Assembly (NCBI RefSeq): GCF_016903815.1
Contig: NZ_CP069973.1
Length of the DNA: 64,000 nucleotides
Source of the DNA: Escherichia coli
GTDB lineage: Bacteria; Pseudomonadota; Gammaproteobacteria; Enterobacterales; Enterobacteriaceae
Direction: 5' to 3' (one strand)
Positions 35,420 to 64,000 of this stretch are shown here, one piece after another. The position numbers and the translations under genes are program-made. A model generated the notes under the pieces. It was not told where the DNA came from. It saw only the letters and a list, made by a program, of their open reading frames with translations, and made no database searches. The stretch's first letter is position 1. Each line of letters opens with the position of its first letter.

Positions 35420-36781
35420 ATGTTTAAACCGGAACTCCTTTCCCCGGCGGGAACGCTGAAAAATATGCGTTACGCTTTCGCTTATGGCGCAGATGCTGTT
35501 TATGCGGGCCAGCCGCGTTACTCCCTGCGTGTGCGCAACAACGAATTTAACCACGAAAATCTTCAGCTCGGCATCAATGAAGCCCACGCGCTGGGGAAAA
35601 AGTTTTATGTCGTGGTCAACATTGCACCGCACAACGCCAAGCTGAAAACCTTTATCCGTGACCTGAAACCGGTGGTGGAAATGGGGCCGGATGCGCTGAT
35701 TATGTCTGATCCAGGGCTGATTATGCTGGTGCGCGAGCACTTCCCTGAAATGCCGATCCATCTCTCAGTACAGGCTAACGCCGTGAACTGGGCGACGGTG
35801 AAATTCTGGCAGCAAATGGGTCTGACCCGCGTGATCCTCTCTCGCGAACTGTCACTGGAAGAGATTGAAGAGATCCGCAATCAGGTGCCAGATATGGAGA
35901 TCGAAATCTTCGTTCACGGCGCGCTGTGCATGGCCTACTCCGGTCGCTGCCTGCTCTCTGGCTATATCAACAAGCGCGACCCGAACCAGGGCACCTGCAC
36001 CAACGCCTGCCGCTGGGAGTATAACGTCCAGGAAGGGAAAGAAGATGACGTCGGCAACATCGTACACAAGTACGAACCGATTCCGGTGCAAAACGTTGAA
36101 CCGACGCTGGGGATCGGCGCACCAACCGACAAAGTGTTTATGATCGAAGAAGCCCAGCGTCCGGGCGAGTATATGACCGCGTTTGAAGATGAGCACGGCA
36201 CTTACATCATGAACTCGAAAGATCTGCGCGCCATCGCCCATGTTGAACGCCTGACCAAAATGGGCGTGCATTCGCTGAAAATCGAAGGCCGTACCAAATC
36301 TTTCTACTATTGCGCACGCACCGCGCAGGTTTACCGTAAAGCTATCGATGACGCAGCTGCGGGAAAACCATTCGATACCAGCCTGCTGGAAACCCTGGAA
36401 GGTCTGGCGCATCGTGGCTATACCGAAGGTTTCCTGCGTCGTCATACTCACGACGATTATCAGAACTACGAATACGGTTATTCAGTTTCTGACCGCCAGC
36501 AGTTTGTTGGTGAGTTTACCAGTGAGCGCAAGGGCGACCTCGCGGCGGTAGCGGTGAAAAATAAATTCTCCGTTGGCGACAGCCTTGAGCTGATGACGCC
36601 GCAAGGGAACATTAACTTTACCCTTGAGCACATGGAAAACGCCAAAGGCGAAGCAATGCCGGTCGCACCGGGCGATGGTTATACTGTGTGGATCCCGGTG
36701 CCGCAGGATCTTGAGCTAAATTACGCGCTGCTGATGCGTAATTTCTCCGGGGAAACCACGCGTAACCCCCACGGTAAGTGA
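35420..36781 (+). CDS. yegQ: Peptidase U32 family protein YegQ (TrhP-type tRNA hydroxylation factor)
   Basis: 453-aa ORF; size and synteny before cyaR. Confidence 0.85.
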   Translation: MFKPELLSPAGTLKNMRYAFAYGADAVYAGQPRYSLRVRNNEFNHENLQLGINEAHALGKKFYVVVNIAPHNAKLKTFIRDLKPVVEMGPDALIMSDPGLIMLVREHFPEMPIHLSVQANAVNWATVKFWQQMGLTRVILSRELSLEEIEEIRNQVPDMEIEIFVHGALCMAYSGRCLLSGYINKRDPNQGTCTNACRWEYNVQEGKEDDVGNIVHKYEPIPVQNVEPTLGIGAPTDKVFMIEEAQRPGEYMTAFEDEHGTYIMNSKDLRAIAHVERLTKMGVHSLKIEGRTKSFYYCARTAQVYRKAIDDAAAGKPFDTSLLETLEGLAHRGYTEGFLRRHTHDDYQNYEYGYSVSDRQQFVGEFTSERKGDLAAVAVKNKFSVGDSLELMTPQGNINFTLEHMENAKGEAMPVAPGDGYTVWIPVPQDLELNYALLMRNFSGETTRNPHGK

Positions 36782-37053: not shown

Positions 37054-37272
37054 TTACATCCACATAATTTGCTGCCCTGACGGCAACGGGTGCGGTCTTA
37101 CGGCGTGGACTTCTCCCGGCTTCACGATGTATCGCTGTACCGACTCATAAGTGATGAATGTGGCGCTGCAATTCACGTTCTGACACTGGTGATAACGCTC
37201 TTTTGTCGTGTCAGTGATATAGCGGCTTGTACGCGCATGTGCGGCATGCTGGCATAAAGGACAATGAAACAT
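37054..37272 (-). CDS. ogr: Late gene transcription activator Ogr (zinc finger)
   Basis: Internal start MFHCPLCQHAAHARTSRYITDTTKERYHQCQNVNCSATF gives 72 aa with a Cys4 motif. Confidence 0.9.
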   Translation of the reverse strand: MFHCPLCQHAAHARTSRYITDTTKERYHQCQNVNCSATFITYESVQRYIVKPGEVHAVRPHPLPSGQQIMWM

Positions 37273-37353
37273 CGCGAGCACCTCTTCCGGTTTTGTTGAT
37301 GGTGCCATTTTAGTTAATTTATCCTTATAAAACAAACAGATAAATAAATTACA

Positions 37354-42465: not shown

Positions 42466-43656
42466 TTAATTGCTGTTAACCGAGGTGACCAGATTTGCCA
42501 GGTATTTATCGGTAATACGCTGGCGCAGGGTCAGGTTTTCAAGAGGAGGCACCGGTGTATAGTCGTAGTCGATATACAGTTTTCCGGCCTTGAGGGTTTC
42601 CGCATCGTTGGATTCTTCGCTGAACCAGCAGGTCGCATCCACGATATAGCCGTTTGTTTTCAGCTCACGGAATTTGGCATTGATGCCGTCAACGATGTCG
42701 CGAATCAGCGTTGCGGTGATGGGCTTGTCCACCGCCCACATGTGCGCCTCAGCCATCGTGTCGGCCATCACCTGCGCGGTGCGGGTGTAGTTTTCAAAGA
42801 GGAACAGCGGGTCATCAGAGCAGGTACGGTTACCCCAGAATCGGAAACCGTCGCGGCGAATCAGCGTAGTGACGCCTGACTCGTTAAGCAGGTCAGCATC
42901 GGTGCCGGACTCCTGCAAATCCCAGAATACAGATGCGCTGATGCCGGTAACACCGTTTACCCCGACGTTGGACAGCGTTTTATGCCAGCCCTGCTCCTGG
43001 TCGATTTTAGCGCGCAGACCCAGCGCACGGGCGGTGGCATACGCGGTGGCGGTGGTACTGGTGACCGTATCCCATGCGAGGAAATCCGGCCAGATGACCA
43101 TCAGCTCACGCTGGCTGAAATTCTGGCGGTAGGCTTTCACCTCGGAAATGGTCTTACAGCTCCATGCGCTGATATATCCGAAAGCGCGCAGCTTCTGACA
43201 GACGGATGCCAGTGCAACTGCCACCTCTTTGGTATCCAGTCCCGGCACACCGAGAATACGCGGTTTAACACCGGTTACCGACTCCGCCGCCAGCAGGGCT
43301 TTTAGTCCGGTGTACTGACCGTTTTCGTCGGTGGTGCCGATGATATTGGAAACGGTCTGCGCGAGTTTCGTTTCCTCGTCGTCGCCGGTGCCGTCTTCCA
43401 CACGCACGACTACGGTGACCGGTTTTGACTGGTCAGCGATGGCCTGCAACGACGCCGCCAGCGTGCCTTTTTTACCGGCCTTTGCAATTGCGCTCTGCAC
43501 ATTGGTAATCAGCACCGGTTTATTGAGGGGGAAGATTTCCGCATCCGCATCGCTGGCCGTGCAGACCATGCCGACAATGGCGGTGGATACGGTGGAAATG
43601 ACGCGGGTGCCGTCGTTAATCTCCAGCACCTGCACGCCATGATGATAGTCGCTCAT
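42466..43656 (-). CDS. FI: Contractile tail sheath protein FI
   Basis: 396 aa, same length and position as P2 gpFI. Confidence 0.9.
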   Translation of the reverse strand: MSDYHHGVQVLEINDGTRVISTVSTAIVGMVCTASDADAEIFPLNKPVLITNVQSAIAKAGKKGTLAASLQAIADQSKPVTVVVRVEDGTGDDEETKLAQTVSNIIGTTDENGQYTGLKALLAAESVTGVKPRILGVPGLDTKEVAVALASVCQKLRAFGYISAWSCKTISEVKAYRQNFSQRELMVIWPDFLAWDTVTSTTATAYATARALGLRAKIDQEQGWHKTLSNVGVNGVTGISASVFWDLQESGTDADLLNESGVTTLIRRDGFRFWGNRTCSDDPLFLFENYTRTAQVMADTMAEAHMWAVDKPITATLIRDIVDGINAKFRELKTNGYIVDATCWFSEESNDAETLKAGKLYIDYDYTPVPPLENLTLRQRITDKYLANLVTSVNSN

Positions 43657-43749
43657 CCGTTTAACTCCGTGGTTAATGGGTGCAACTATTTTCTGTTGGG
43701 CAGTGCATGAGACGCCATTTGACCTGGCTGGTCAGTGGATGAAACAACA

Positions 43750-43778
43750 GATAAAGAAAATGCGGGCAATTCGCCCGC
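43750..43778 (-). terminator. Rho-independent terminator downstream of the 197-aa cargo gene
   Basis: Minus-strand hairpin gcgggcgaattgcccgc followed by ttttctttatc. Confidence 0.5.
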
Positions 43779-43985
43779 CTGTCCTGATTTGCACACACTC
43801 ATTTTCCGACTGACAGTTTACATAGCCCAAAAGTTATCAAATCTGACAGTCTGCTTTGAGCAAGAAGCGGACATTTGCCTGTCAGGGTATATGCCGCTCT
43901 GTGGTTATTATCCAGAATCAATAATTCATCTGAGTTGGATGACATATAAAACATAGTTACTCCATGAATAACCATTAGCAGATTA

Positions 43986-44579
43986 TCAATTATGTAAATC
44001 TTTTGTTTTATGTTCTTTAGCGTATTGTGACAACAAATGGCTATAGCGTTTAAGCAAAATATTAGAAAGATTAAGCTCATTCATGAAGTGTTCTTCTAAT
44101 AAGTAACCATCAATATCAACTTTAATATCATTACCACTTTTCATCTTCTGTAACGTAGATTTCACACGCTCCAGCAGGATGCTTTGCTCATGGTAATAGT
44201 CCATAAGAAGAGTAACATCCTCTTTATCAAGCTTACTTAATTCGCTGAAGTAGGATTTAAACACTTTATCAGTCTGGTTTAATGCAATCTGTAAGCGAGG
44301 CCCCCCTAATGATTTGACATTAATGGCAAAAGGCTCGCCAACAAAATGCTCCGAATTTTCGTCAAAGCCAATATATCTCGTTTTATCAAGAAAAGTGAGA
44401 GCGCGATGGTTATTAGCGATTTCATATGCAAACATTGTTCTGATACTGTCCCTCTCAGCCTCCATGCTTATATCATCACGGTGATTTGTATAAAATATAT
44501 TTCCAACAAAGAGAACCATAGCAAGAATCACTGAACTTGCCTCCCAGTTAATATTTTTAAATCGTCGCTTAGTAAACAT
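43986..44579 (-). CDS. Hypothetical membrane-anchored protein (cargo gene at the P2 Z/fun position)
   Basis: 197-aa ORF in an AT-rich block between G and FI; N-terminal basic stretch plus one TM helix (SSVILAMVLFVGNIFY); no recognised catalytic motif. Confidence 0.6.
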   Translation of the reverse strand: MFTKRRFKNINWEASSVILAMVLFVGNIFYTNHRDDISMEAERDSIRTMFAYEIANNHRALTFLDKTRYIGFDENSEHFVGEPFAINVKSLGGPRLQIALNQTDKVFKSYFSELSKLDKEDVTLLMDYYHEQSILLERVKSTLQKMKSGNDIKVDIDGYLLEEHFMNELNLSNILLKRYSHLLSQYAKEHKTKDLHN

Positions 44580-44800
44580 ACCGCACCTTAATTATCAAAA
44601 ATATTCCTTCAGTGTTATCTGGTTAGCCTAAACCAAGTCATTAAAGTCCGCAGGATATCATATACATAAAATGTATTGATTAGAATTTGCACTAATAAAA
44701 TAATGCTTTACTGAAATCTACTCCAGACATAGAGCGGCCTGTCAGATTAGGCTTTACTCTGTGCCATAGATATGTAATCTCACACCAGAGCTTATACAAC

Positions 44801-45328
44801 TTATTGCGGCATTTCCGGCCATTCAGGATTTACAGGATCCACACGGCTGACCAGAACGCTGTAGCGTTCCCATGACTCCAGTCGTGCACGTTCCTCATCC
44901 GTCGCCATATTCAGCCTGACAGCGCGTTCCAGTGGCTGAATAACGCTTTCCGCTTCGGAAAGTAATGCGGCCTTTTGTGATTCTGCCTGTTGTTGCTGTT
45001 CATCTGCCGTATAAATCCGTTTAACCACAGCACCATCCTTAAACATCCATTTACCTGAGTCGTCAGCACGTCGGTTGGAGGTAATATCAGGAACCTCAAC
45101 AACGCTAAAACCTTCAGGGTTAAGCGTTGAAGCATCTCTGGTGATAGCGACAATAATATTATTTTCATCGTAAACAATCTTTATTGTGTCTGGCTGAAAG
45201 TTCTTCACTTCCTCATACCAGTTTTTTCCATCCTCAGAGTAAAGCCAGATAACTCCGTGTTTCTTTGTTAACTCATACTGTTCCAGTGTTTTAGCGTTAC
45301 CCGCTTTTATGTTCTTTAAGTGCATCAT
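44801..45328 (-). CDS. G: Tail fiber assembly protein G
   Basis: 175 aa, same length and position as P2 gpG. Confidence 0.85.
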
Positions 45329-45329
45329 A

Positions 45330-47351
45330 TTAAACGCTCGCTACATTATACCAGGTGCCATTTATATACTTTTGAACGGGTCTGTAATAAACGCCCGCTA
45401 TATTATCGGCAGAGTTGGACCCTGTATCCTGAACATTAATACCAGACAATACATGACCTGACGGGCACTGGAAATTCCATGTTTGCCAGTTGTTCACTCC
45501 ATAATATTGCTGTGAACCAAGTCGAACATCTTTCACATATCTGGAATCAAAATTGCCATAGTTGCCAGGAATAACTTGCGAGCCACAAAGCCAGTTACCG
45601 TTATTATCCATGTACGCCTGACCATCGGTGCCATTGGCTGTCCTTGAGTTATTAATCATGTAGATGCCAAATTGCTTGTTCCCCAGTCCACCTATCATGA
45701 ACTTGCGGTCAGCGTGATTCTGGCGAAGCAACGCCTGAGCGCTATCAGTGTTAACTATATTTTTCCCAAAGATAGCGTTGTTATCGCGCATCTGAATCCA
45801 CATACCATTACTGCTGTTAATAGCAAAACGGTCTGAAAGCGTCTCCCCTGAAACATTAAGGCCACGCCCCATCGAAACAGCGCCAGTAGCGTTATTAATC
45901 CATAATGGCCTTAATCCGTTATAAGTCCCCATGTTGTCACCGGAGTTTGTCAACATGAAGTATGTATTTGAACCATCATTACGAATAAAGAATCCGTAAT
46001 TACCATAAGCAATACGTAGGCCGTTTGCTGATTTTGATATGACTTCGCCATTTACAATGGCATTGACAAGAACATACAAAGCATCCCATTTAAGATTCAT
46101 CAGGTCTTTTGTTGTAGTACTCTGGCGGCTTCTCCATTTGAAATATTCATTGCCGTTATCCCCCGTTTCAAACCACATGAATGAATCAGTGTCACCATCG
46201 GCATCATTTTTAAATCCAATCTTCGCCCAGTCAGTATTTCGAATCCAGGCAAGGATTGAGTCGTTTTCAAAAGTAAGTCCACCGGACAAGGTATCGCCAT
46301 TTTTTTGCACGGCGTTCCCGGCTCGGTTTACCGTTTCCTGTAAACCGAGATATTCGATAACGGCGGCAACGGTCGATTTAGCCAGAATATCCCGCCCGAC
46401 TTTTGTCAGGGTTGCCAGGCTGGCAACATCATTCCCCATAAAATACGGAAACCTGTCTGCCGCAGTAGCAAGCCCCGCCAGTGCCGTCAGGGTGGCATCT
46501 TTCGGTTGCTTCCCCGCAAGCGCATTAGTCATGGTGGTAGCAAAATTCGGGTCATTGCCCAGCGCCGCCGCCAGCTCGTTCAGCGTATTCAGTGCGTCAG
46601 GCGACGAGTCTACAAGGGCGGCAATCGCGGCCATAACGAAAGCCGTGTTTGCGATCTGAGTATTATTCGTTCCCTGTCGCGCAGTTGGCGTCGTTGGCGT
46701 TCCGGTCAGTGCAGGGCTGTTTAATGGCGCTTTCTTGTTCGTTTCATCCATTACCGTCTTAACGGCTTTCGGCGTTGCAGCCAGTGTTTCAGACGTGCTG
46801 TTGGTCGCACTGCTTAACTGAGTAAAACCTTTTGCGGTCAGCGAGGCGTCAGGGTGACGTCGTGACTGTTCATGTTCTGCAATTTTGTCATCAACGTAAT
46901 CCTGCGTCGCCATCACCGTTGTGGTGTCGATGGTCAGATCCACTGAGGCCACACTGCTGACGATAATGACCATGCGGCAGGTCTGCGAACGTCCTGAGCC
47001 TTCGGCAAGGGCTGGCTTATAACTTTCGGCCATGTTCGCCACGGCAATTAACGTTCCTGCATCATCGTACAGGCCAAGCTCACGCATCCAGAAACCGCCC
47101 ACCTCCGGCGGAATAACCAGCTCTGCGATAATATAATTACTGTTTCGTTTGTCCTGGCTGATTTTGTTCAGCGCATGTCGCCAGACTTCGTGGATAAGCC
47201 CGGTCTGTCCGGCATCCGGGACAGGCAATTTACCACCGCCATCCCCGACGGCCATCGTGGTAATGTTGACCTTCCGCCCTCCCGGCGCGGTTGCCGCTGC
47301 CAGCTTTGCTGCACCGGCAGTGGTGATAACGGTTTTGAATTTTGTGCTCAT
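45330..47351 (-). CDS. H: Tail fiber protein H
   Basis: 673 aa (P2 gpH about 669 aa); Thr/Ala/Gly-rich repeats in the fiber shaft. Confidence 0.9.
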
Positions 47352-48797: not shown

Positions 48798-49145
48798 TCA
48801 ACTCACAGGGATGGTTAATGAAAGTGGCTGGCCGGTGTCGTTGTGCTGGCCGGTTAACGTGACCGTCATTCGCCCGTCAAAACTGCGCTCAGTGGTGACG
48901 GATGACAGGGTGACGCGGGGTTCCCATTTCAGCACCGCCATGTAACAGGCGACCTTAATCTGCAACTCAAGCGCCGGGGTCTGCGGCTGGTCAATCATTG
49001 ATGCCAGCAACGAGCCGTAATCACGACGCATCACCCGTGAGCCGACCGGTGTGCGCAGGATATCGCCGATACTCTGGCTGATATGCTCAAGGTCAGTGAC
49101 AGTCAGGCCATCACTGCGATTCATTCCGAGATAACGCGCTGTCAT
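48798..49145 (-). CDS. W: Baseplate protein W (gp25-like)
   Basis: 115 aa, same as P2 gpW. Confidence 0.85.
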   Translation of the reverse strand: MTARYLGMNRSDGLTVTDLEHISQSIGDILRTPVGSRVMRRDYGSLLASMIDQPQTPALELQIKVACYMAVLKWEPRVTLSSVTTERSFDGRMTVTLTGQHNDTGQPLSLTIPVS

Positions 49146-49771
49146 AAAGGACTCCCGGTTGTGCCGCCGCTGTCGCCGGGGTGTTTGTGGGTATGCAGTA
49201 CCTTACCGTTTGATGAGAGTTCACCGCCGGTGTGTTCAATGTTGCCGCGCATCGTCCCGCCCTTCTGCACTTCCAGCGTGCCGGTAGTCAGTTTGTTAGT
49301 GCAGACCACTTCTGGTGTGTCCAGGGTGACGCGGGTTGATGCTTTCACCGTGACCACTGGTACCGTGGCAGTAACAGAATCAGAAGCCGTCACGCTGGCC
49401 GTTTTAATTCCGCTTACCGTGAGTGCACTGGTTTCAGGTTCATACTCAATCACCGCCCCGTCAGGGAAACGGATATGCAGGGCATCCGCCGACGCAGACG
49501 GCGCAGGGTTATCGCCGGAATAAATCCCCGGCAGAACGAACGCCGTGTCGAGTTCACCGCCCACGGCCAGAATCAGCACCTGTTCCCCCACGGAAGGTGC
49601 CCACCATGTGCGCGAACGCCCAGCGCGATGGGTCAGCCACTGAAGCCAGTCGGTGCACATGCCGCCAGTCTGCACACGGCAGCGACCGGCATTAAGGTCG
49701 GTTTCGACGATAATGCCAGTGCGAATCATATTGCGTATAAAGCGAAGAATTTCATTGTATTGTGCATTCAT
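49142..49771 (-). CDS. V: Baseplate spike protein V
   Basis: ORF track 235 aa; internal start MNAQYNEILRFIRNM gives about 209 aa (P2 gpV about 211 aa). Confidence 0.85.
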   Translation of the reverse strand: MNAQYNEILRFIRNMIRTGIIVETDLNAGRCRVQTGGMCTDWLQWLTHRAGRSRTWWAPSVGEQVLILAVGGELDTAFVLPGIYSGDNPAPSASADALHIRFPDGAVIEYEPETSALTVSGIKTASVTASDSVTATVPVVTVKASTRVTLDTPEVVCTNKLTTGTLEVQKGGTMRGNIEHTGGELSSNGKVLHTHKHPGDSGGTTGSPL

Positions 49772-49857
49772 TCGATAATAATGATTCTGTACAATCTCGA
49801 AGTAAATCACACCACGATTTCTGGTGCACAGAACAACAAGGGACAACAAAATCCATT

Positions 49858-50931
49858 ATGAGTACTTACTTTTTCTCGTCAGAAACAATGAAAGAATTGT
49901 TCAAAGATTATCTGGTCTTTTTGAACACGCTGACTCCCAGCACAAACTTTGAATCAAACAGAAACAAAATAATTGCTCAAGCAATAAACTTCATTTCCGA
50001 AAACCCTGAAGATTGGGACAAAAAATCCCAGTACAACATTGCTATGATTGGCGACACCTTTAAAAGTTTCTTAAGAGAAAAGGGGGAAGATAACAACAGC
50101 ATCAACCTTATATTCACTTGCTTTTTTAGATTTATCATTGAACCAAGCATTCTCTCTCCGGAAATAGAGTCTCACTTTTCACCACTAAGAACCATCAAGG
50201 ATTTTGCTCTGTATAACTATAATGAATTCGATGAGCGGAGCAGAGCACAGATAGACTTTTCTCTTAGAGAACTGCCATTAGCAATGGTTAAAGAAGTTTT
50301 AAGCTCCAGCAATGTTGACACATATAAAAAATACATTGATAGTTTAAACGAAGGGCGTCAATTTTTCGAAAAGTGCGACTCCTTCTTAAAGGAGCAACAT
50401 GCCAAAATAGAGTCAATTAAAGAGTCATTAAAAGGGTATGAGGTCGCATTTAATTTTGTTGGATTGTTTGATGGCTTTAATTCACTTGGCAAAAAGAAAG
50501 AAAGTGAAATCATGCTATCAAGAATAATTCTTATCATCTTGGCTATAATCATTCCCTCCCCGCTGATATACTATGGAATGCATAAATTACCAACTCTCGA
50601 AACGACAAATGCTGCCACATATTTTATGTCAGCACTACCTTTTGCATCAGTTACATTGATTTTCATGTATTACTTTAGAGTTGTACTGATAAATCATATA
50701 TCGTTACGAACTCAGATTATGCAAATAGAACTCAGAAAGAGCCTTTGTCAGTTCATTCAGAGTTATAGCGACTATTCCTCAGAGATAAGGAAAAACAATC
50801 CGGAAGCGCTTTCAAAATTCGAAGACGTAGTATTTTCAAACATCATGCTATCCGATGATAAGATACCATCTACATTTGATGGCATTGAGCAAATAGCATC
50901 GTTAATCAATTCATTAAAAAATGGAAAGTAA
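49858..50931 (+). CDS. Hypothetical two-TM membrane protein (cargo gene between V and S)
   Basis: ATG at 49858 (MSTYFFSSETMKELF) gives 357 aa; AT-rich; soluble N-terminal region, two hydrophobic helices (IILIILAIIIPSPLIYYG and ALPFASVTLIFMYYF), C-terminal tail; opposite strand to phage late genes. Confidence 0.65.
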   Translation: MSTYFFSSETMKELFKDYLVFLNTLTPSTNFESNRNKIIAQAINFISENPEDWDKKSQYNIAMIGDTFKSFLREKGEDNNSINLIFTCFFRFIIEPSILSPEIESHFSPLRTIKDFALYNYNEFDERSRAQIDFSLRELPLAMVKEVLSSSNVDTYKKYIDSLNEGRQFFEKCDSFLKEQHAKIESIKESLKGYEVAFNFVGLFDGFNSLGKKKESEIMLSRIILIILAIIIPSPLIYYGMHKLPTLETTNAATYFMSALPFASVTLIFMYYFRVVLINHISLRTQIMQIELRKSLCQFIQSYSDYSSEIRKNNPEALSKFEDVVFSNIMLSDDKIPSTFDGIEQIASLINSLKNGK

Positions 50932-51033: not shown

Positions 51034-51486
51034 CTAACGATTCAGGTGAGCCAGGATAATCTCTTCAATCATCTGCACATCCTCACCGGTAAAGCCAAGC
51101 AGAGGACGCGCCGGATAATCAATTTTCTTACCGTCTTTCCGGGTTTCTTCCGACAGACCGAACTGATGCACACTGGCGATTTTCGGTGACTTCCCGCCGT
51201 AAAACTCCATTGATGCCTGTTCAGGGCTGGCGCGGATATGCAAAAAACGACTGGTGATAAGTTTCGCAAACATTTTTCGCTTAACGCGACCGGTCTTTTT
51301 TCTGGCGCTCTGCTGCTGGCGTGGTGCGTAGGGTGTGCCGTCCGGGGCTTTCTGTGCCATCACCCGACGCTGCTGACTCTGCCGCAGACGTTTCGCCAGT
51401 TCTGCACTCAGTCGCCGACGCCCAGACGGTGACAGCGATTCAATCAGTCCGGTCAGCCGGTCTTCAAAACGCTTAAACTCATTCAT
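51034..51486 (-). CDS. S: Tail completion protein S
   Basis: 150 aa, same as P2 gpS. Confidence 0.85.
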   Translation of the reverse strand: MNEFKRFEDRLTGLIESLSPSGRRRLSAELAKRLRQSQQRRVMAQKAPDGTPYAPRQQQSARKKTGRVKRKMFAKLITSRFLHIRASPEQASMEFYGGKSPKIASVHQFGLSEETRKDGKKIDYPARPLLGFTGEDVQMIEEIILAHLNR

Positions 51487-57403: not shown

Positions 57404-59176
57404 ATGACCATCACCACAGACACCACTCTTTTACACGACCCGCGTCGTCAGGCGGCGCTGCTGTACTGGCAGGGGTTTTCCGTGCCGCAGATTGCCGCCA
57501 TGTTGCAGATGAAACGCCCGACGGTGCAGAGCTGGAAACAGCGCGACGGCTGGGACAGCGTTGCCCCCATCAGCCGTGTCGAAATGAGTCTGGAAGCGCG
57601 GCTGACCCAGCTCATCATCAAACCGCAGAAAACCGGCGGTGACTTCAAGGAAATTGACCTGCTGGGACGCCAGATTGAACGACTGGCACGGGTCAACCGT
57701 TACAGCCAGACCGGCAACGAGGCAGACCTTAATCCGAACGTCGCTAACCGCAACAAAGGCGGGCGGCGCAAACCGAAAAAGAATTTTTTCAGTGACGAGG
57801 CCATCGAAAAGCTGGAGCAGATTTTCTTTGAGCAGTCTTTCGACTATCAGTTGCACTGGTATCGCGCCGGGCTTGAGCACCGCATCCGCGATATCCTGAA
57901 ATCCCGCCAGATTGGCGCAACGTTTTATTTTTCCCGCGAGGCGCTGCTGCGCGCCCTGAAAACCGGTCATAACCAGATTTTTCTGTCGGCCAGTAAAACG
58001 CAGGCGTATGTGTTCCGCGAATACATCATCGCCTTTGCCCGGCTGGTTGACGTTGACCTGACCGGTGACCCGATTGTCCTGGGCAATAACGGCGCAAAAC
58101 TGATTTTTCTCGGCACCAACTCCAACACCGCACAGAGCCATAACGGCGACCTGTACGTCGACGAGATTTTCTGGATCCCGAATTTTCAGGTACTGCGTAA
58201 GGTGGCATCAGGTATGGCCTCACAGAGTCACCTGCGCTCGACCTATTTCTCCACCCCGTCCACGCTGGCGCACGACGCCTACCCGTTCTGGTCGGGTGAA
58301 CTGTTCAACCGGGGACGCGCCAGCGCCGCCGAACGCGTGGAAATCGACGTCAGTCATAACGCCCTTGCCGGTGGGCTTCTCTGTGCGGACGGCCAGTGGC
58401 GACAGATTGTCACCATTGAGGACGCCCTGAAAGGCGGCTGCACGCTGTTCGACATTGAGCAGCTCAAACGCGAAAACAGCGCCGACGATTTTAAAAACCT
58501 GTTCATGTGTGAATTTGTTGACGACAAGGCATCGGTGTTCCCGTTCGAGGAGCTGCAACGCTGCATGGTCGACACGCTGGAAGAATGGGAAGACTATGCA
58601 CCGTTTGCCGCCAATCCGTTCGGCTCCCGCCCGGTATGGATTGGTTACGACCCGTCACACCGTGGCGACAGCGCCGGATGCGTGGTGCTGGCACCGCCGG
58701 TGGTGGCCGGTGGCAAATTCAGAATACTTGAGCGTCACCAGTGGAAAGGCATGGACTTTGCCACCCAGGCTGAATCCATCCGCAAACTCACCGAAAAATA
58801 CAACGTCGAATACATCGGAATTGATGCCACCGGCCTCGGTGTCGGCGTGTTCCAGCTCGTGCGCTCGTTCTATCCCGCCGCGCGCGACATCCGCTACACG
58901 CCGGAAATGAAAACCGCAATGGTGCTCAAGGCCAAAGACGTTATCCGCCGTGGCTGTCTGGAATATGACGTCAGCGCCACCGACATCACCAGCTCGTTTA
59001 TGGCTATCCGCAAGACCATGACCAGCAGCGGACGCAGTGCCACCTATGAAGCCAGCCGCAGCGAGGAAGCCAGCCACGCCGACCTCGCCTGGGCGACCAT
59101 GCACGCCCTGTTAAATGAGCCACTCACCGCCGGTATCAGCACCCCGCTGACATCCACCATTCTGGAGTTTTACTGA
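57404..59176 (+). CDS. P: Terminase large (ATPase) subunit P
   Basis: Internal start MTITTDTTLLHDPRRQAALLYWQG gives 590 aa, as P2 gpP; divergent from O. Confidence 0.9.
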   Translation: MTITTDTTLLHDPRRQAALLYWQGFSVPQIAAMLQMKRPTVQSWKQRDGWDSVAPISRVEMSLEARLTQLIIKPQKTGGDFKEIDLLGRQIERLARVNRYSQTGNEADLNPNVANRNKGGRRKPKKNFFSDEAIEKLEQIFFEQSFDYQLHWYRAGLEHRIRDILKSRQIGATFYFSREALLRALKTGHNQIFLSASKTQAYVFREYIIAFARLVDVDLTGDPIVLGNNGAKLIFLGTNSNTAQSHNGDLYVDEIFWIPNFQVLRKVASGMASQSHLRSTYFSTPSTLAHDAYPFWSGELFNRGRASAAERVEIDVSHNALAGGLLCADGQWRQIVTIEDALKGGCTLFDIEQLKRENSADDFKNLFMCEFVDDKASVFPFEELQRCMVDTLEEWEDYAPFAANPFGSRPVWIGYDPSHRGDSAGCVVLAPPVVAGGKFRILERHQWKGMDFATQAESIRKLTEKYNVEYIGIDATGLGVGVFQLVRSFYPAARDIRYTPEMKTAMVLKAKDVIRRGCLEYDVSATDITSSFMAIRKTMTSSGRSATYEASRSEEASHADLAWATMHALLNEPLTAGISTPLTSTILEFY

Positions 59177-60210
59177 TGAGCAAGAAAAAAGGGAAAACAC
59201 CGCAACCTGCGGCAAAAACAATGACCGCCAGCGCCCCGAAAATGGAGGCATTCACCTTTGGTGAGCCGGTGCCGGTACTCGACCGCCGTGACATTCTGGA
59301 TTACGTTGAGTGCATCAGTAACGGCAGATGGTATGAGCCACCGGTCAGCTTTACCGGTCTGGCAAAAAGCCTGCGTGCTGCCGTGCATCACAGCTCACCG
59401 ATTTACGTCAAACGTAATATTCTGGCCTCGACATTTATCCCGCATCCGTGGCTTTCCCAGCAGGATTTCAGCCGCTTTGTGCTGGATTTTCTGGTGTTCG
59501 GTAATGCATTTCTGGAAAAGCGTTACAGCACCACCGGTAAGGTCATCAGACTGGAAATCTCACCGGCAAAATATACCCGCCGTGGCGTGGAGGAGGATGT
59601 TTACTGGTGGGTGCCGTCCTTCAACGAGCCGACAGCCTTCGCGCCCGGTTCCGTGTTTCACCTGCTGGAGCCGGATATTAATCAGGAGCTGTACGGCCTG
59701 CCGGAATATCTCAGCGCCCTTAACTCTGCCTGGCTGAATGAGTCGGCCACGCTGTTCCGCCGCAAGTATTACGAAAACGGCGCTCATGCCGGATACATCA
59801 TGTACGTCACTGATGCCGTGCAGGATCGCAACGATATCGAAATGCTTCGCGAAAACATGGTTAAGTCGAAAGGCCGCAATAACTTTAAAAATCTGTTTCT
59901 CTATGCCCCGCAGGGGAAAGCCGACGGCATTAAAATTATCCCGCTCAGTGAAGTGGCGACGAAGGACGATTTTTTTAATATCAAAAAAGCCAGCGCCGCA
60001 GACCTGCTGGACGCGCACCGCATCCCCTTTCAGTTGATGGGCGGCAAGCCGGAGAACGTCGGGTCGCTGGGTGATATTGAGAAAGTGGCAAAGGTCTTTG
60101 TCCGCAATGAGCTTATCCCGCTACAGGACAGGATCCGCGAGATAAACGGCTGGCTCGGTCAGGAGGTCATCCGCTTTAAAAACTACTCACTGGACACTGA
60201 CAACGACTGA
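59176..60210 (+). CDS. Q: Portal protein Q
   Basis: 344 aa, as P2 gpQ; start overlaps P stop. Confidence 0.9.
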   Translation: MSKKKGKTPQPAAKTMTASAPKMEAFTFGEPVPVLDRRDILDYVECISNGRWYEPPVSFTGLAKSLRAAVHHSSPIYVKRNILASTFIPHPWLSQQDFSRFVLDFLVFGNAFLEKRYSTTGKVIRLEISPAKYTRRGVEEDVYWWVPSFNEPTAFAPGSVFHLLEPDINQELYGLPEYLSALNSAWLNESATLFRRKYYENGAHAGYIMYVTDAVQDRNDIEMLRENMVKSKGRNNFKNLFLYAPQGKADGIKIIPLSEVATKDDFFNIKKASAADLLDAHRIPFQLMGGKPENVGSLGDIEKVAKVFVRNELIPLQDRIREINGWLGQEVIRFKNYSLDTDND

Positions 60211-60596: not shown

Positions 60597-62021
60597 ATGG
60601 TTTCGTCAAACGTCAAAATAGCAGCATTTCCAGCAAAAAGATTCTTTGTTGAGATGCTCACCCGAGATATTGAGTTGTCTGACTCAATTCTAGATTTACT
60701 AGATAACTGCCTAGATGGTGTATTAAGAAAAAACAATTTCACTCCAGAGCAAACCTTCGGTAAATCAGACGTTTACAAGGGTTACTATGCTCATATTGAA
60801 TTTGATGAGAATAGTTTCAGAATAACTGATAATTGCGGAGGTATTCCAGCAAAACTTGCGGAAAGCTATGCGTTTAGGTTGGGTAGACCTGCAGAACGTG
60901 AGGCGGATGATCTCCCGACAATTGGTGTATATGGTATCGGAATGAAACGAGCGATTTTCAAAATGGGGACATCTGCTCAGATTTTAAGCAAAACTGAAAA
61001 CGAACAATTTTCAGTTACCATTTCTCCTGAATGGATGGCTGATGATGAAAACTGGTCTTTGGAGTTAGAGCGAAATAATGTTGACTTAAACGAAACAGGC
61101 GTCAGCATCCAAATTAACAATTTAAGGAAAGATATTAAAGCATCCCTATCAAAGGATCGTGGCTTTGAAGAAGTTTTGATTAATATCATAGCAAATCATT
61201 ATAGTTTAATCATTAAAAAAGGGTTTGAGGTTAAAGTAAATGGATGTATTGTTAAGCCAAATAGCACCAATTTAATATTTGATGAAGAAGCCATTAAAGG
61301 CAATACCGACGGCATTGCTCCTTATGTATATAAAAATAATTCAAATGGAGTTTCAATTAAAGTTGCAGTTGGATTTTATCGTAACTTGCCTAGTGAGGAA
61401 GAAGAAGAGAATTTATTATCAGGCCGTTCCACAACAGAAAAAGCTGGTTGGACAATTATATGCAATGATCGTGTAGTCCTACATGCGGATAAAACCAAGC
61501 TTACAGGTTGGGGAGAAGCTGGAGTTCCACAATATCATACTCAATTCATCGGAATTTCTGGTGTTGTTATTTTCACATCATCAAATGCTGAATTACTACC
61601 TATCACTACAACTAAACGAGGTGTTGATGGTAACTCTGAGCTATATCTTTCTACTAAAGATTTTATGCGCGAGGGTTTAAAATTCTTCACGGACTTTACC
61701 AACAAATGGAAAAGTAACGCAGAGGAAAGAAAGCAAATTATTAATACTGCATCCAATATGGTTTCAACAACTGAGGTCGACTTTACTAAATCAATTCCTA
61801 GAGAAAACTGGTCGAACGTTCGACGTTCAATAGGAGGAGAAGTTTTCAAACCGAAGCTACCAATGCCTCGGGATTCGGATCCATTACGTCAGATAAAATT
61901 TAGCCGTAGACATAGTGAAATAAAACTGGTGTCAGAGTTTCTCTTTGATGATGCAACTCAACCACCAACAGAGGTTGGTCAATATTGTTTTGATGAATTT
62001 CTAAAAAAGGCTAAACAATGA
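60597..62021 (+). CDS. GHKL-superfamily (Bergerat-fold) ATPase, cargo gene 1 of a two-gene operon
   Basis: 474 aa, AT-rich. GHKL motifs readable in order: N-box DLLDNCLDG, G1 box ITDNCGGIP, G2 box GVYGIGMKRAIF. SD aaggat 6 nt upstream of ATG. Confidence 0.75.
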   Translation: MVSSNVKIAAFPAKRFFVEMLTRDIELSDSILDLLDNCLDGVLRKNNFTPEQTFGKSDVYKGYYAHIEFDENSFRITDNCGGIPAKLAESYAFRLGRPAEREADDLPTIGVYGIGMKRAIFKMGTSAQILSKTENEQFSVTISPEWMADDENWSLELERNNVDLNETGVSIQINNLRKDIKASLSKDRGFEEVLINIIANHYSLIIKKGFEVKVNGCIVKPNSTNLIFDEEAIKGNTDGIAPYVYKNNSNGVSIKVAVGFYRNLPSEEEEENLLSGRSTTEKAGWTIICNDRVVLHADKTKLTGWGEAGVPQYHTQFIGISGVVIFTSSNAELLPITTTKRGVDGNSELYLSTKDFMREGLKFFTDFTNKWKSNAEERKQIINTASNMVSTTEVDFTKSIPRENWSNVRRSIGGEVFKPKLPMPRDSDPLRQIKFSRRHSEIKLVSEFLFDDATQPPTEVGQYCFDEFLKKAKQ

Positions 62022-63010
62022 GTACTGGCGGAAGCATCCCATATCATTTGCGGCAAAACAAAGCCATTGAAAGGAATCTATTTATAGAATCCCTAAGAAG
62101 GTTAAACAATTATACAAACATATCCGAATATGTATATATAGGATTCGGGGGGCCTTTCCTCGAAGATTTCAAACAAATTCATAATTTGTTAAAAGTGACT
62201 AAAATGATATCTATCGAAGGAGATAAAAATGTCCATTGCCGACAACAGTTTAACAAACCATTATCTTGCATAAATTTGGGTGATACCCCAGAAATGAGCG
62301 GAGACTTCATCAATCGCTATAACTTTGACGATAAAACGATCATATGGTTAGATTATGCAACGCCTTCAGACTTAAATGCTCAGTTAAATGAAATAGTTAA
62401 TTTGGTTACAAAGCTAAAACCCAAAGACATTTTTAAGATCACTTTAAATGCAAACCCTGAAGCCTTGGGAAAAAACCCGAGCGAACGAGATCCAAGAGCA
62501 TATAGATTTCAAAAGATAAACGATATTTTGACTCAAGATTTTTTACCACCGAATGCAGTAGTCGAAGATGTCGGATTTAAAAAATACCCTATGCTCCTAG
62601 TTAATGCTATGAGACGCGCAATAGGGCATGGATTAAAAGGTCGAAATGACATAAGAATACATCCATTAACTTCTTTCGTTTATAAAGATGGCCAACAGAT
62701 GGTTACTTTAACAGCTATCGTTCTTGAAAACACTGATACAGAAGAAGCTAAATTTATTGATAATTCCAGAATCAAGAATTGGCCATTTTATGATGGGAAG
62801 TGGAGTAATCCTAAAAATATAAACGTCCCTGCTATGTCTTTAAAAGAAAGGATACATATTGAATCTTTATTACCCGAAGCTTCAGTAGAAAACATCCATG
62901 AAACTCTAGGGTTTTACATTGGCTCCACTCCTTCTGGAGCCAACTCCGATCTAAGTAATTTTATCGAATACTACAAGGTCGTTCCATGGTATTCAAAGAT
63001 TCTTTTTTAA
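62018..63010 (+). CDS. Hypothetical protein, cargo gene 2 (partner of the GHKL ATPase)
   Basis: 330 aa; start overlaps the upstream stop (ATGA), implying translational coupling. Gly-rich YIGFGGPF then ISIEGD and IIWLDYATPSD resemble a Rossmann-like nucleotide/SAM-binding fold only loosely. Confidence 0.65.
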   Translation: MSTGGSIPYHLRQNKAIERNLFIESLRRLNNYTNISEYVYIGFGGPFLEDFKQIHNLLKVTKMISIEGDKNVHCRQQFNKPLSCINLGDTPEMSGDFINRYNFDDKTIIWLDYATPSDLNAQLNEIVNLVTKLKPKDIFKITLNANPEALGKNPSERDPRAYRFQKINDILTQDFLPPNAVVEDVGFKKYPMLLVNAMRRAIGHGLKGRNDIRIHPLTSFVYKDGQQMVTLTAIVLENTDTEEAKFIDNSRIKNWPFYDGKWSNPKNINVPAMSLKERIHIESLLPEASVENIHETLGFYIGSTPSGANSDLSNFIEYYKVVPWYSKILF

Positions 63011-64000
63011 CTTTTAAACAGTAATCGTATAAAGGTAATAGCATAGCCTCAGCCACAAGCGGACTAACGCTATTACCTATCTGTCTAAAACTGTGCCACT
63101 TTGTAGGATGAAAACGGAACCAATCAGGAAACCCTTGTAACCTAGCTGCTTCACGAGGAGTTATCACCCTAGCTTGAGTAGGGTGAATTGGCCTAACGGC
63201 CTGATAACTCCCCTTGTCACTTCCTGTACCTGCTCTCAAAGTTGGACAAAAACCGTTAGGATTGAGTCGTTGTGATCTCGAAATCTTATCAGTTTCACCG
63301 AATGAAAGTTGTCTATATCTCCTGAGCACTTCCTCCGAATGAGCTGTACCTAAAAAGCCAGATACCAATCCTTTCTTTAAATTTTGAATGGATTCTGCAT
63401 CACCTACACCATTTGGTATATGTCCCCAAAGTCGCTCATAATAGTAACCATCTTTATCCATTTTTACTGAACGCCAGCCTTGCTCCTCTGTCTGCCACTC
63501 TTTTCTTATAGTTCGCGGTAATCCGTAGAGTGCATCTTTGACAAGAGTCTGCTCTATTATATTTTTAGGAAAAAAATCAGATTCTTTTAACTGATTAATA
63601 AAACCTCTTTTAAAACCCATGAAAAATATTCGTGTCCGTGTCGTAGGTGCTCCATAATTTGAAGCATTAACCCTTATTGGATGTAATAAACAATAGCCAT
63701 CTCTAACTAAAGAAAATGCTTCTTCTCTTACTGGATTATATTTCTCACCCATAATTCCTGGAACATTCTCTGCCAAAAAACAAATTGGAGATAACTCACT
63801 TACCAACCTAAAAAAATGAATATACAATTCATTTCTTGTATCATTGGCATTCCTTTTTCCAATGGTGCTAAATCCTTGGCAAGGTGGACCACCAATAACG
63901 CAATCAATGTCCTTTACAGCACATGCAGACAAAATATCTTTTGCTGTAAGCGAGCAGACATCCCGATGCAAATGTGTTGATTTTGGGAAGTTTAACTCAT
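62961..64000 (-). CDS. DNA (cytosine-5)-methyltransferase, C-terminal part in window (N-terminus beyond window end)
   Basis: m5C-MTase motifs: GGPPCQGFS (motif IV), FLAENVPG (motif VI), TTRTRIFF (motif VIII), IGNSVSP (motif X). Reading frame stays open past 63971 to the window edge, so motif I lies outside. Confidence 0.8.
   Translation of the reverse strand, partial: ELNFPKSTHLHRDVCSLTAKDILSACAVKDIDCVIGGPPCQGFSTIGKRNANDTRNELYIHFFRLVSELSPICFLAENVPGIMGEKYNPVREEAFSLVRDGYCLLHPIRVNASNYGAPTTRTRIFFMGFKRGFINQLKESDFFPKNIIEQTLVKDALYGLPRTIRKEWQTEEQGWRSVKMDKDGYYYERLWGHIPNGVGDAESIQNLKKGLVSGFLGTAHSEEVLRRYRQLSFGETDKISRSQRLNPNGFCPTLRAGTGSDKGSYQAVRPIHPTQARVITPREAARLQGFPDWFRFHPTKWHSFRQIGNSVSPLVAEAMLLPLYDYCLKVKKESLNTMERPCSIR

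What the first reader, a model, noticed from the sequence alone, without database searches (positions are those of the whole stretch)
43660..44800. AT-rich single-gene cargo at the P2 Z/fun position encoding a 197-aa membrane-anchored protein
Between G and FI, the slot where P2 carries Z/fun (T5 exclusion), there is an AT-rich block with one 197-aa ORF (43986-44579, minus). It has a basic N-terminus, one TM helix and a roughly 160-aa charged domain with no motif I recognise, plus its own terminator hairpin. A membrane-anchored moron here would fit a superinfection-exclusion or injection-blocking role.
Basis: partly seen in the sequence, partly recalled or inferred. Interest (0 to 1): 0.6.

Follow-up and report, generated by a model that had tools for sequence, protein, structure and literature searches.

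The report
Uncharacterised membrane-anchored cargo in P2 hotspot
A P2-like prophage of E. coli carries a common but unstudied gene in a slot known to hold anti-phage genes; it encodes a small inner-membrane protein whose bulk faces the periplasm, which makes it a reasonable but untested candidate for blocking incoming phages at the cell envelope.

Summary
An 856-bp AT-rich cassette (window 43872-44727, GC about 0.35) lies between tail-fibre assembly gene G and sheath gene FI of a P2-like prophage. That is the Z/fun slot. It holds one real gene (43986-44579, minus strand, 197 aa).

The protein has a basic N-tail of about 11 residues, one strongly conserved TM helix and a predicted four-helix bundle of about 150 residues that should face the periplasm. 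It is unrelated to P2 Fun(Z) and matches nothing in Pfam, PADLOC or NCBIfam. Its only family match is PHROG 3829, of unknown function.

The "own terminator" is a conserved P2 backbone hairpin. I found no convincing promoter of its own.

The family is small and restricted to Enterobacterales. It always moves as a single gene between cargo sites of mobile elements: both P2 hotspots, P4 satellites, ICEs, plasmids and islands. Five distant members sit next to Gabija, Lamassu, SIR2-HerA, a TIR candidate and PDC-S49.

My best reading is envelope-level exclusion of incoming phages or other mobile DNA (confidence about 0.35). Published lysogens carrying this cassette showed no attributable protection against eight phages; T5 was not among them.

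It is a sound but ordinary candidate: a new, uncharacterised member of a known hotspot's cargo.

The parts
43872..44727 (.). Cargo cassette (856 bp, AT-rich) that replaces the fun(Z) segment of P2
   Evidence: Homology to P2, Wphi and P2-EC58 stops at exactly 43871 and resumes at 44728. GC is 0.29-0.39.
43986..44579 (-). Gene for the 197-aa bitopic membrane protein (PHROG 3829; named 'lysogenic conversion protein' by NCBI without evidence)
   Evidence: Purifying selection is shown.
44584..44589 (-). Shine-Dalgarno AAGGTG, 4 nt upstream of the ATG
   Evidence: Read directly from the sequence.
44547..44579 (-). Codons 1-11: short basic tail, predicted cytoplasmic
   Evidence: Net charge is +4 here and +2 to +7 across the family.
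44490..44546 (-). Codons 12-30: single TM helix, the most conserved segment of the family
   Evidence: Hydropathy; AF2 helix 12-66; conservation.
43989..44489 (-). Codons 31-197: stalk plus helical bundle, predicted periplasmic. Conserved positions are R47, A51, Y52, E53, I54, N57, L117, M126, Y128, Y129 and F165.
43840..43872 (.). Backbone inverted-repeat arm on the FI side (core AATCTGACAG)
   Evidence: It corresponds to the 'right inverted repeat' annotated in AJ512683. It is only modestly above shuffles.
44728..44760 (.). Backbone inverted-repeat arm on the G side
   Evidence: 'left inverted repeat' of AJ512683.
43752..43778 (-). Intrinsic-terminator-like hairpin GCGGGCGAATTGCCCGC plus T-run. 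It is a backbone feature, not part of the cassette.
   Evidence: conserved in P2 and Wphi.
43724..43749 (-). Counterpart of the P2 pF activator-binding site (context only)
   Evidence: Transferred from the NC_001895 annotation through alignment A5.
44801..45328 (-). gpG tail-fibre assembly gene (upstream flank). No terminator lies between it and the ORF.
42466..43656 (-). FI tail sheath gene (downstream flank)

Best explanation
The cassette is a one-gene accessory module in the Z/fun hotspot of P2-like phages.

Its product is a bitopic inner-membrane protein. About 11 basic residues sit in the cytoplasm, one sequence-specific TM helix crosses the membrane, and a stalk plus four-helix bundle of about 150 residues sits in the periplasm.

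I propose that it acts at the envelope to exclude incoming phages, or other mobile DNA, without killing the cell. It would do this either by binding the ejection or tape-measure apparatus of the incoming phage, or by occupying a host inner-membrane component that phage needs for genome entry.

Shown here: the location, the cassette boundaries, that the gene is real, its conservation, the lack of homology to known families, its spread among mobile elements, and its neighbourhood to defence systems.

Predicted: the topology and the fold.

Inferred: the exclusion function, the target, and expression in lysogens.
For: 1. The slot is a published defence hotspot. It holds P2 fun(Z) plus three validated systems (PMC9519451; bioRxiv 10.1101/2024.10.15.618418).
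2. The family moves as a solitary ORF between cargo sites of mobile elements:
   - P2 Z/fun slot: 27 IMG/VR loci with varied G and H alleles, 200 of 5426 complete E. coli genomes and 13 phage records.
   - P2 old/tin hotspot (L052).
   - P4-like satellites, downstream of the primase, twice (L007; L051).
   - Integrase-adjacent site (L015), ICE (L012) and plasmids (L004; L055).
   - Only the ORF is conserved between these contexts, not its flanks.
3. Five distant members lie within 0-3 kb of PADLOC-recognised systems or candidates: TIR PDC-S66 and Lamassu, PDC-S49, and SIR2-HerA and Gabija.
4. N-tails carry +2 to +7 net charge against -4 to +2 just after the TM. Three distant members have C-terminal C-x4-C pairs. 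Both features point to N-in/C-out topology. With about 11 cytoplasmic residues the protein cannot sense or act in the cytoplasm, so any effect must be at the envelope.
5. The TM helix is the most conserved segment: majority-residue frequency 0.89 and entropy 0.41. This suggests a specific contact within the membrane.
6. There is no catalytic motif and no enzyme-like fold.
Against: - There is no experimental evidence for any function.
- E. coli C lysogens of AC1 and SIDE7 carry this cassette. Among the lysogens tested against eight phages, protection is reported only for AC1, and its cloned TIR system reproduced that protection (PMC9122126).
- The gene did not emerge from a functional selection on 71 E. 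coli strains against T4, lambda-vir and T7 (PMC9519451). This is weak evidence, because its presence in that library is only likely.
- No convincing sigma-70 promoter was found; the best usable candidate scores 8 of 12. Expression in lysogens is therefore unproven.
- No homology was found to any PHROG family annotated as superinfection exclusion.
- Some contexts show no defence genes (L013, L006, L018).
Confidence: 0.35

Rival explanations
1. It is an abortive-infection membrane effector. The periplasmic bundle would sense an envelope cue such as tail-tip insertion or peptidoglycan damage. The conserved TM helices would then oligomerise into a holin-like lesion that collapses the membrane potential.
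For: - The TM is highly conserved and contains polar or small residues (N11, W12, E13, S15, S16, A20, N27).
- The layout of one TM plus a large periplasmic domain resembles the T4 class III holin (my own knowledge).
- It shares the defence-island neighbourhood.
- Two homologues lie 39-45 bp downstream of single-gene defence candidates on the same strand.
Against: - The gene is solitary in nearly all contexts.
- The cytoplasmic tail of 10-25 residues is too short to receive a cytoplasmic signal.
- It matches no PHROG family annotated as a holin or Abi protein; its only PHROG matches at E<=1 are two families of unknown function.
- The same negative lysogen data apply.
Confidence: 0.15
2. It is a host-benefit lysogenic-conversion gene unrelated to phage. 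For example, it could give periplasmic immunity against a bacteriocin, a T6SS effector or a lysozyme-type toxin, or it could modulate the envelope in some other way.
For: - The protein is periplasm-facing, membrane-tethered and non-enzymatic.
- The colicin M immunity protein Cmi has a similar N-terminal anchor with a periplasmic domain (my own knowledge).
- The family is found on plasmids and ICEs as well as phages.
- The P2 hotspots also carry non-defence cargo such as a cytolethal distending toxin (PMC9122126).
Against: - No toxin gene is adjacent in any context examined.
- The association is with anti-phage systems rather than toxin loci.
- No homology was found to known immunity families.
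Confidence: 0.2
3. It is a late-expressed helper for the phage's own lytic cycle, transcribed as the last gene of the V-W-J-I-H-G operon. It could tune lysis timing or protect the producing cell or the progeny.
For: - It has the same orientation as the late genes.
- No terminator lies between G and the ORF, whereas P2 has its V-operon terminator there.
- No strong promoter of its own was found.
- The TM-plus-periplasmic-helices layout resembles i-spanins or antiholins (my own knowledge).
Against: - The family also occurs in P4 satellites, ICEs, plasmids and chromosomal islands that have no late operon.
- The cassette is absent from about 80% of the complete E. coli genomes that match this P2-like backbone, so it is dispensable.
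- ORFs in the window around 51.9-53.7 kb have the size and order of the P2 lysis cassette, but I did not annotate them.
- It matches no PHROG family annotated as a spanin, holin or antiholin.
Confidence: 0.1

Closest known systems
P2 Fun(Z) (NP_046777; the cloned gene blocks T5)
   Same: It occupies the same slot between G and FI, is non-essential AT-rich cargo, and is bounded by the same backbone breakpoints and inverted repeats.
   Different: Fun(Z) is 528 aa against 197 aa here, lies on the opposite strand and has its own V-operon terminator next to it. BLASTP finds no similarity (best E = 3.1).
Validated defence systems of P2 hotspot #2 (Vassallo et al. 2022), and other cargo of this slot such as Wphi gp44 and P2-EC58 ORF1
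   Same: They share the hotspot and are likewise exchanged as small cassettes.
   Different: No PADLOC model matches this protein, even at E<=1. It shows no similarity to Wphi gp44 or EC58 ORF1. It has not been tested.
Membrane-anchored superinfection-exclusion proteins (T4 Imm and Sp, HK97 gp15, lactococcal Sie2009 type); comparison from my own knowledge
   Same: They are small prophage- or phage-encoded inner-membrane or periplasmic proteins without enzymatic motifs that act on genome entry. The predicted N-in/C-out anchor with an extracytoplasmic domain matches the Sie2009-type layout.
   Different: There is no detectable sequence relationship: the only PHROG matches are families of unknown function. 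The periplasmic domain is larger, at about 150 residues. No phenotype is known.
Four-helix-bundle periplasmic sensor domains of chemoreceptors and histidine kinases (for example PcaY 6s18, PilJ 8wdf, MCP2201 9kup)
Rst_2TM_1TM_TIR system of phage AC1 (Rousset et al. 2022)
   Same: It is present in the same phage, AC1, which also carries this cassette, and it includes single-TM proteins.
   Different: It sits in a different hotspot (old/tin). I compared one candidate TM protein of that locus, the 185-aa AC1 gp03, and BLASTP found no alignment at E<=100.

Membership tests
P2 Fun(Z) | Sequence homology to the 528-aa Fun(Z) protein | tested here: not met
   BLASTP best E = 3.1 over 19 residues.
P2 Fun(Z) | Located between G and FI | tested here: met
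P2 Fun(Z) | Blocks growth of T5 when cloned | not testable with these tools
   This needs a plaque assay. T5 was not in the published AC1/SIDE7 lysogen panel.
Moron (Hendrix/Juhala sense) | Extra DNA between genes that are adjacent in relatives, with deviant base composition | tested here: met
   Sharp breakpoints at 43871/43872 and 44727/44728; GC 0.35 against 0.52-0.57.
Moron (Hendrix/Juhala sense) | Own promoter | tested here: inconclusive
   The best usable candidate is TTCTAA-17-TATGAT (8 of 12) at 44685-44657. The 9-of-12 hit overlaps the Shine-Dalgarno. Hits were fewer than in shuffles.
Moron (Hendrix/Juhala sense) | Own terminator | tested here: not met
   The only downstream hairpin (43762-43778) is conserved P2 backbone.
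Known anti-phage defence systems (PADLOC-DB 2.0) | Match to a defence-protein HMM | tested here: not met
   Zero families at E<=1 for this protein. At E<=0.01, three of the four distant homologues tested had none; P0056 had only a marginal Cas8b hit (E 0.006), which I treat as noise.
Known anti-phage defence systems (PADLOC-DB 2.0) | Enrichment next to known defence genes | tested here: inconclusive
   Of about 13 distinct contexts outside the Z/fun slot, 5 have PADLOC-positive neighbours and 3 more lie in P2 or P4 hotspots. The sample is small and no genome-wide background was computed.
Annotated superinfection-exclusion families (PHROGs) | Profile match to a Sie-annotated family | tested here: not met
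   The only matches are PHROG 3829 (unknown function, 6e-137) and PHROG 25274 (unknown function, E 0.033).
Annotated superinfection-exclusion families (PHROGs) | Inner-membrane location with an extracytoplasmic domain | tested here: met
   This is a prediction only: hydropathy, the positive-inside rule and the AF2 model.
4HB_MCP / sensor four-helix bundle | Pfam profile match, and TM2 plus a cytoplasmic transmitter | tested here: not met
   No Pfam hit. The protein has a single TM and ends in the periplasm. There is only fold-level similarity.
i-spanin (Rz-like) | Located in the lysis cassette with a partner o-spanin lipoprotein | tested here: not met
   The gene lies between G and FI, outside the stretch of small late-strand ORFs near 51.9-53.7 kb that has the layout of the P2 lysis cassette (not annotated here). 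The cassette has no partner ORF. No spanin-annotated PHROG family matches.

The most novel reading that the evidence does not exclude
This would be a new class of single-protein immunity that works entirely from the periplasmic face of the inner membrane. The four-helix bundle would recognise an incoming phage's tail-tip or ejection proteins, or the local envelope damage they cause. The unusually conserved TM helix would then either plug the host channel that the phage uses or self-assemble into a lesion. That would amount to an extracytoplasmic phage sensor with no cytoplasmic part, spread by P2, P4, ICEs and plasmids across Enterobacterales.
Probability: 0.12. Interest if true: 0.7.

Novelty: new member of a known kind. 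Interest (0 to 1): 0.4.

Why it matters
The cassette is present in 200 of 5426 complete E. coli genomes, about one in five of the 1016 that match this P2-like backbone. The exact protein was seen on about 1000 contigs, which is the counting cap. It is therefore one of the commoner unknowns in a hotspot whose other cargo has repeatedly turned out to be antiviral.

Almost all characterised defence systems sense and act in the cytoplasm. This protein can only work on the periplasmic side, so if it excludes phages it would give a simple one-gene handle on the poorly understood step of genome passage through the inner membrane.

If it turns out to have no phage phenotype, it becomes a useful counter-example to 'guilt by location' in P2 hotspots.

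Tried and rejected
- **Direct family searches:** Pfam on the single sequence and on the alignment found nothing. PADLOC found nothing. NCBIfam gave only a noise hit, so the NCBI name 'lysogenic conversion protein' does not come from a curated HMM. I could not trace the origin of the name.
- **PDB sequence searches:** The single sequence and the profile gave only noise.
- **Homology to other cargo:** No similarity to Fun(Z), Wphi gp44, P2-EC58 ORF1 or the 185-aa AC1 gp03. One search compared only a Fun(Z) fragment and is superseded.
- **Domain fusions:** A profile search of 5.8 billion proteins found only stand-alone proteins of roughly 160-220 aa, plus truncated fragments.
- **Fold searches:** The first AF2 model (pLDDT 63.6) was replaced by a better one (83.5). 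In both cases only generic four-helix bundles matched.
- **DUF4760 lead:** Weak Foldseek hits (E 0.04-0.07) have no sequence support and no literature behind them, so I dropped it.
- **RNA in the cassette:** Only a sub-threshold snoRNA hit, which I treat as noise.
- **Other ORFs overlapping the cassette:** For example 43799-44080, which crosses the cassette boundary; I treat these as spurious.
- **Effector for a neighbouring TIR protein:** Judged unlikely because of the 10-25-residue cytoplasmic tail.
- **Nilsson et al. 2004:** Not held in the library.
- **Literature searches:** Searches for the family, for PHROG 3829 and for recent work on this slot found nothing on this protein.
- **Not run:** The costly genome-contig scan. 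With few family-search calls left I could not have annotated the neighbours it would return.

Full report
**1. The observation**

Window 42466-47351 is the tail region of a P2-like prophage on the minus strand. It reads H (45330-47351), G (44801-45328), a 1144-bp gap, then FI (42466-43656), FII, E and T.

- The gap holds one long ORF, 43986-44579 (minus strand, 197 aa), preceded by AAGGTG 4 nt upstream.
- GC falls to 0.29-0.39 over 43800-44800, against 0.55-0.60 in FI and T.
- The ORF has GC 0.35 and GC3 0.34, against 0.565 and 0.69 for FI.
- In P2 itself this gap carries fun(Z).

**2. Anatomy of the locus**

BLASTN against P2, Wphi and the P2-EC58 'Z-region' entry shows that backbone homology ends at exactly 43871 on the FI side and resumes at exactly 44728 on the G side, in all three. 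The cargo is therefore 43872-44727, 856 bp.

- Just outside the breakpoints lie imperfect inverted repeats with the core AATCTGACAG (43840-43872 and 44728-44760).
- These correspond to the 'right' and 'left inverted repeat' features annotated in AJ512683.
- In this window they are only modestly above shuffles: alignment score 30 against 18 ± 3.5.
- The stretch 43657-43871 is conserved backbone. It holds the counterpart of the pF activator site (about 43724-43749) and a GC-rich hairpin with a T-run (43762-43778). That hairpin is conserved in P2 and Wphi.
- No terminator-like hairpin lies between the G stop codon and the ORF. P2 has its annotated V-operon terminator at that place, inside its own cassette.
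- No convincing sigma-70 promoter serves the ORF. The 9-of-12 hit overlaps the ribosome-binding site, and the best usable candidate scores 8 of 12 at 44685-44657. There were fewer hits than in shuffles.

From this I infer that the gene can be read through from the late V-G operon. Whether it is expressed in lysogens is open.

**3. The gene is real**

- The cassette is in 200 of 5426 complete E. coli genomes. That is about 20% of the 1016 genomes that match the P2-like backbone.
- It is in 13 phage records, including AC1, SIDE7, PhiR44_1, P24E6b, D8 and 12W.
- In 27 IMG/VR loci it always sits G -> ORF -> FI with identical spacing. The adjacent gpG alleles (70-100% identity) and H alleles vary, so the cassette assorts independently of the tail-fibre module.
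- Against a Pantoea homologue pN is 0.21 while pS is 0.80 and saturated, which shows purifying selection. Between E. coli alleles dN/dS is 0.62, based on few changes.
- Conservation of N11-W12-E13-A14 upstream of the alternative start supports the 197-aa start.

**4. The protein**

- The N-tail MFTKRRFKNI has net charge +4. One hydrophobic segment spans residues 12-30. There is no Cys and no AXA-type cleavage site.
- Across the 16 family members of alignment A2 that retain an N-tail, it carries +2 to +7, while the 15 residues after the TM carry -4 to +2. Three distant members end with C-x4-C pairs.
- This predicts N-in/C-out topology, with about 11 cytoplasmic residues and about 165 periplasmic residues.
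- AlphaFold2 on a diverse alignment gives pLDDT 83.5 and pTM 0.72. One long helix (12-66) forms the TM plus a stalk. A conserved loop follows (67-91), then helices 92-99, 105-116, 119-148 and 151-178 pack into a bundle.
- Positions conserved across the family are R47, A51, Y52, E53, I54, N57, L117, M126, Y128, Y129 and F165.
- The TM segment is the most conserved region: majority-residue frequency 0.89 and entropy 0.41. This is unusual for a simple anchor.

**5. Homology and fold**

- Pfam, PADLOC, NCBIfam and PDB sequence searches found nothing.
- The only family match is PHROG 3829, of unknown function, over the full length at 6e-137.
- phmmer against 1.84 billion cluster representatives found only 19 clusters.
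- A profile search of 5.8 billion proteins found 53 proteins. Every source-named hit is from Enterobacterales, and none carries a fused domain.
- Foldseek against AFDB50 finds only family members at significant E-values.
- There is no similarity to Fun(Z), Wphi gp44, EC58 ORF1 or the 185-aa AC1 gp03.

**6. Where relatives live**

| Locus or homologue | Context |
|---|---|
| L007, L051 | P4-like satellites, just downstream of the primase |
| L052 | P2-like phage, old/tin hotspot, 45 bp after a PDC-S49 candidate |
| L008 | 39 bp after a TIR protein (PDC-S66), beside an integrase |
| L010 | Divergent from Lamassu LmuA/LmuB on a ParA plasmid-like contig |
| L054 | Next to Gabija GajA/GajB in Serratia |
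| L053 | In a Dickeya island with SIR2-HerA, ArdC and IS elements |
| L012 | Inside an ICE transfer region |
| L015 | Right after a P4-type integrase |
| L004 | Beside resolvases and ParB |
| L055 | On an IncFII plasmid |
| L006, L013, L018 | No informative neighbours |

Non-coding flanks are not conserved between contexts. The ORF alone is therefore the mobile unit.

**7. Published experiments that touch it**

- The Z/fun slot is described as a second defence-enriched P2 locus with three validated systems (PMC9519451). It was rediscovered as a mixed-purpose hotspot in a later preprint (10.1101/2024.10.15.618418).
- Rousset et al. isolated four P2-like phages and tested E. coli C lysogens against lambda, T4, P1, 186cIts, CLB_P2, LF82_P8, AL505_P2 and T7.
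- Protection is reported only for AC1 (against lambda and LF82_P8), and its cloned TIR system reproduced that protection (PMC9122126).
- AC1 and SIDE7 both carry this cassette. It therefore gave no visible protection against those eight phages in lysogens.
- T5 was not in that panel.

**8. Mechanism**

With about 11 cytoplasmic residues the protein cannot sense or act in the cytoplasm, so whatever it does happens in the membrane or periplasm. Four further facts bear on its role: the published defence hotspot, its single-gene mobility between cargo sites, its neighbours among defence systems, and the absence of any catalytic motif. Together these make non-abortive envelope-level exclusion of incoming phage or other mobile DNA the best-supported reading. 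I put its confidence at about 0.35.

The rivals are:
- an abortive, holin-like membrane effector with a periplasmic trigger (0.15);
- a host-benefit conversion gene such as periplasmic immunity to a bacteriocin or T6SS toxin (0.2);
- a late-expressed helper of the phage's own lytic cycle (0.1), which is weakened by the family's presence on non-phage elements.

The remaining probability is 'something else'.

**9. Verdict**

It belongs to a known kind, namely cargo of the P2 Z/fun hotspot. Its protein family is uncharacterised and has no detectable relative among known exclusion or defence proteins.

A specialist would not find it surprising. It is, however, common, simple and directly testable, and its purely extracytoplasmic architecture is atypical for defence genes. 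I score interest at 0.4.

Noticed in passing
window 60597-63010 (+) and 62961-63971 (-): Directly after the portal gene Q (59176-60210), in the old/tin hotspot, there is a two-gene operon with a 4-nt overlap. The first gene is a 474-aa GHKL-type ATPase (Pfam HATPase_c_3, 6e-8; PHROG 20521). The second is a 330-aa Methyltransf_35 putative O-methyltransferase (5e-85; PHROG 19983). Neither matches PADLOC. A convergent C5 cytosine methyltransferase follows (PADLOC MTase_II, 9e-82). This may be an undescribed defence or modification system.
   Followed up: partly
window 49762-50931 (+): A 389-aa ORF lies on the strand opposite the late genes, between the ORFs at 49142-49849 and 51034-51486. By position these would be V and S, but I did not annotate them; this would be the P2 orf30 slot. 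It matches PHROG 9373 (unknown function) and has no Pfam or PADLOC hit. It is a third cargo site in this prophage.
   Followed up: partly
L008 5090-6657 and L052 4172-6585: Distant homologues of the 197-aa protein lie 39-45 bp downstream, on the same strand, of single-gene PADLOC defence candidates: a 290-aa TIR protein (PDC-S66) and a 593-aa PDC-S49 protein. These 'single-gene' candidates may sometimes be two-gene units, or the family may simply ride along in defence islets.
   Followed up: partly
window 44900-46300: The 3' part of tail-fibre gene H and gene G are also low in GC (0.38-0.49). They vary widely between phages that share the identical cassette (gpG 70-100% identity, H mosaic). 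This fits receptor-binding modules being swapped next to the Z/fun slot.
   Followed up: partly
protein cluster of the window ORF (P0059, P0061): Truncated 99-aa versions of the protein occur on about 40 contigs, including complete E. coli chromosomes. The gene has therefore been inactivated in some lineages.
   Followed up: no
window 35420-36781 (+): A 453-aa ORF matches PHROG 2895 (unknown function) over its full length and has no PADLOC hit. It lies just beyond the ogr-like regulator (37054-37335) at the edge of the prophage, so it may be further cargo near the attachment site.
   Followed up: no
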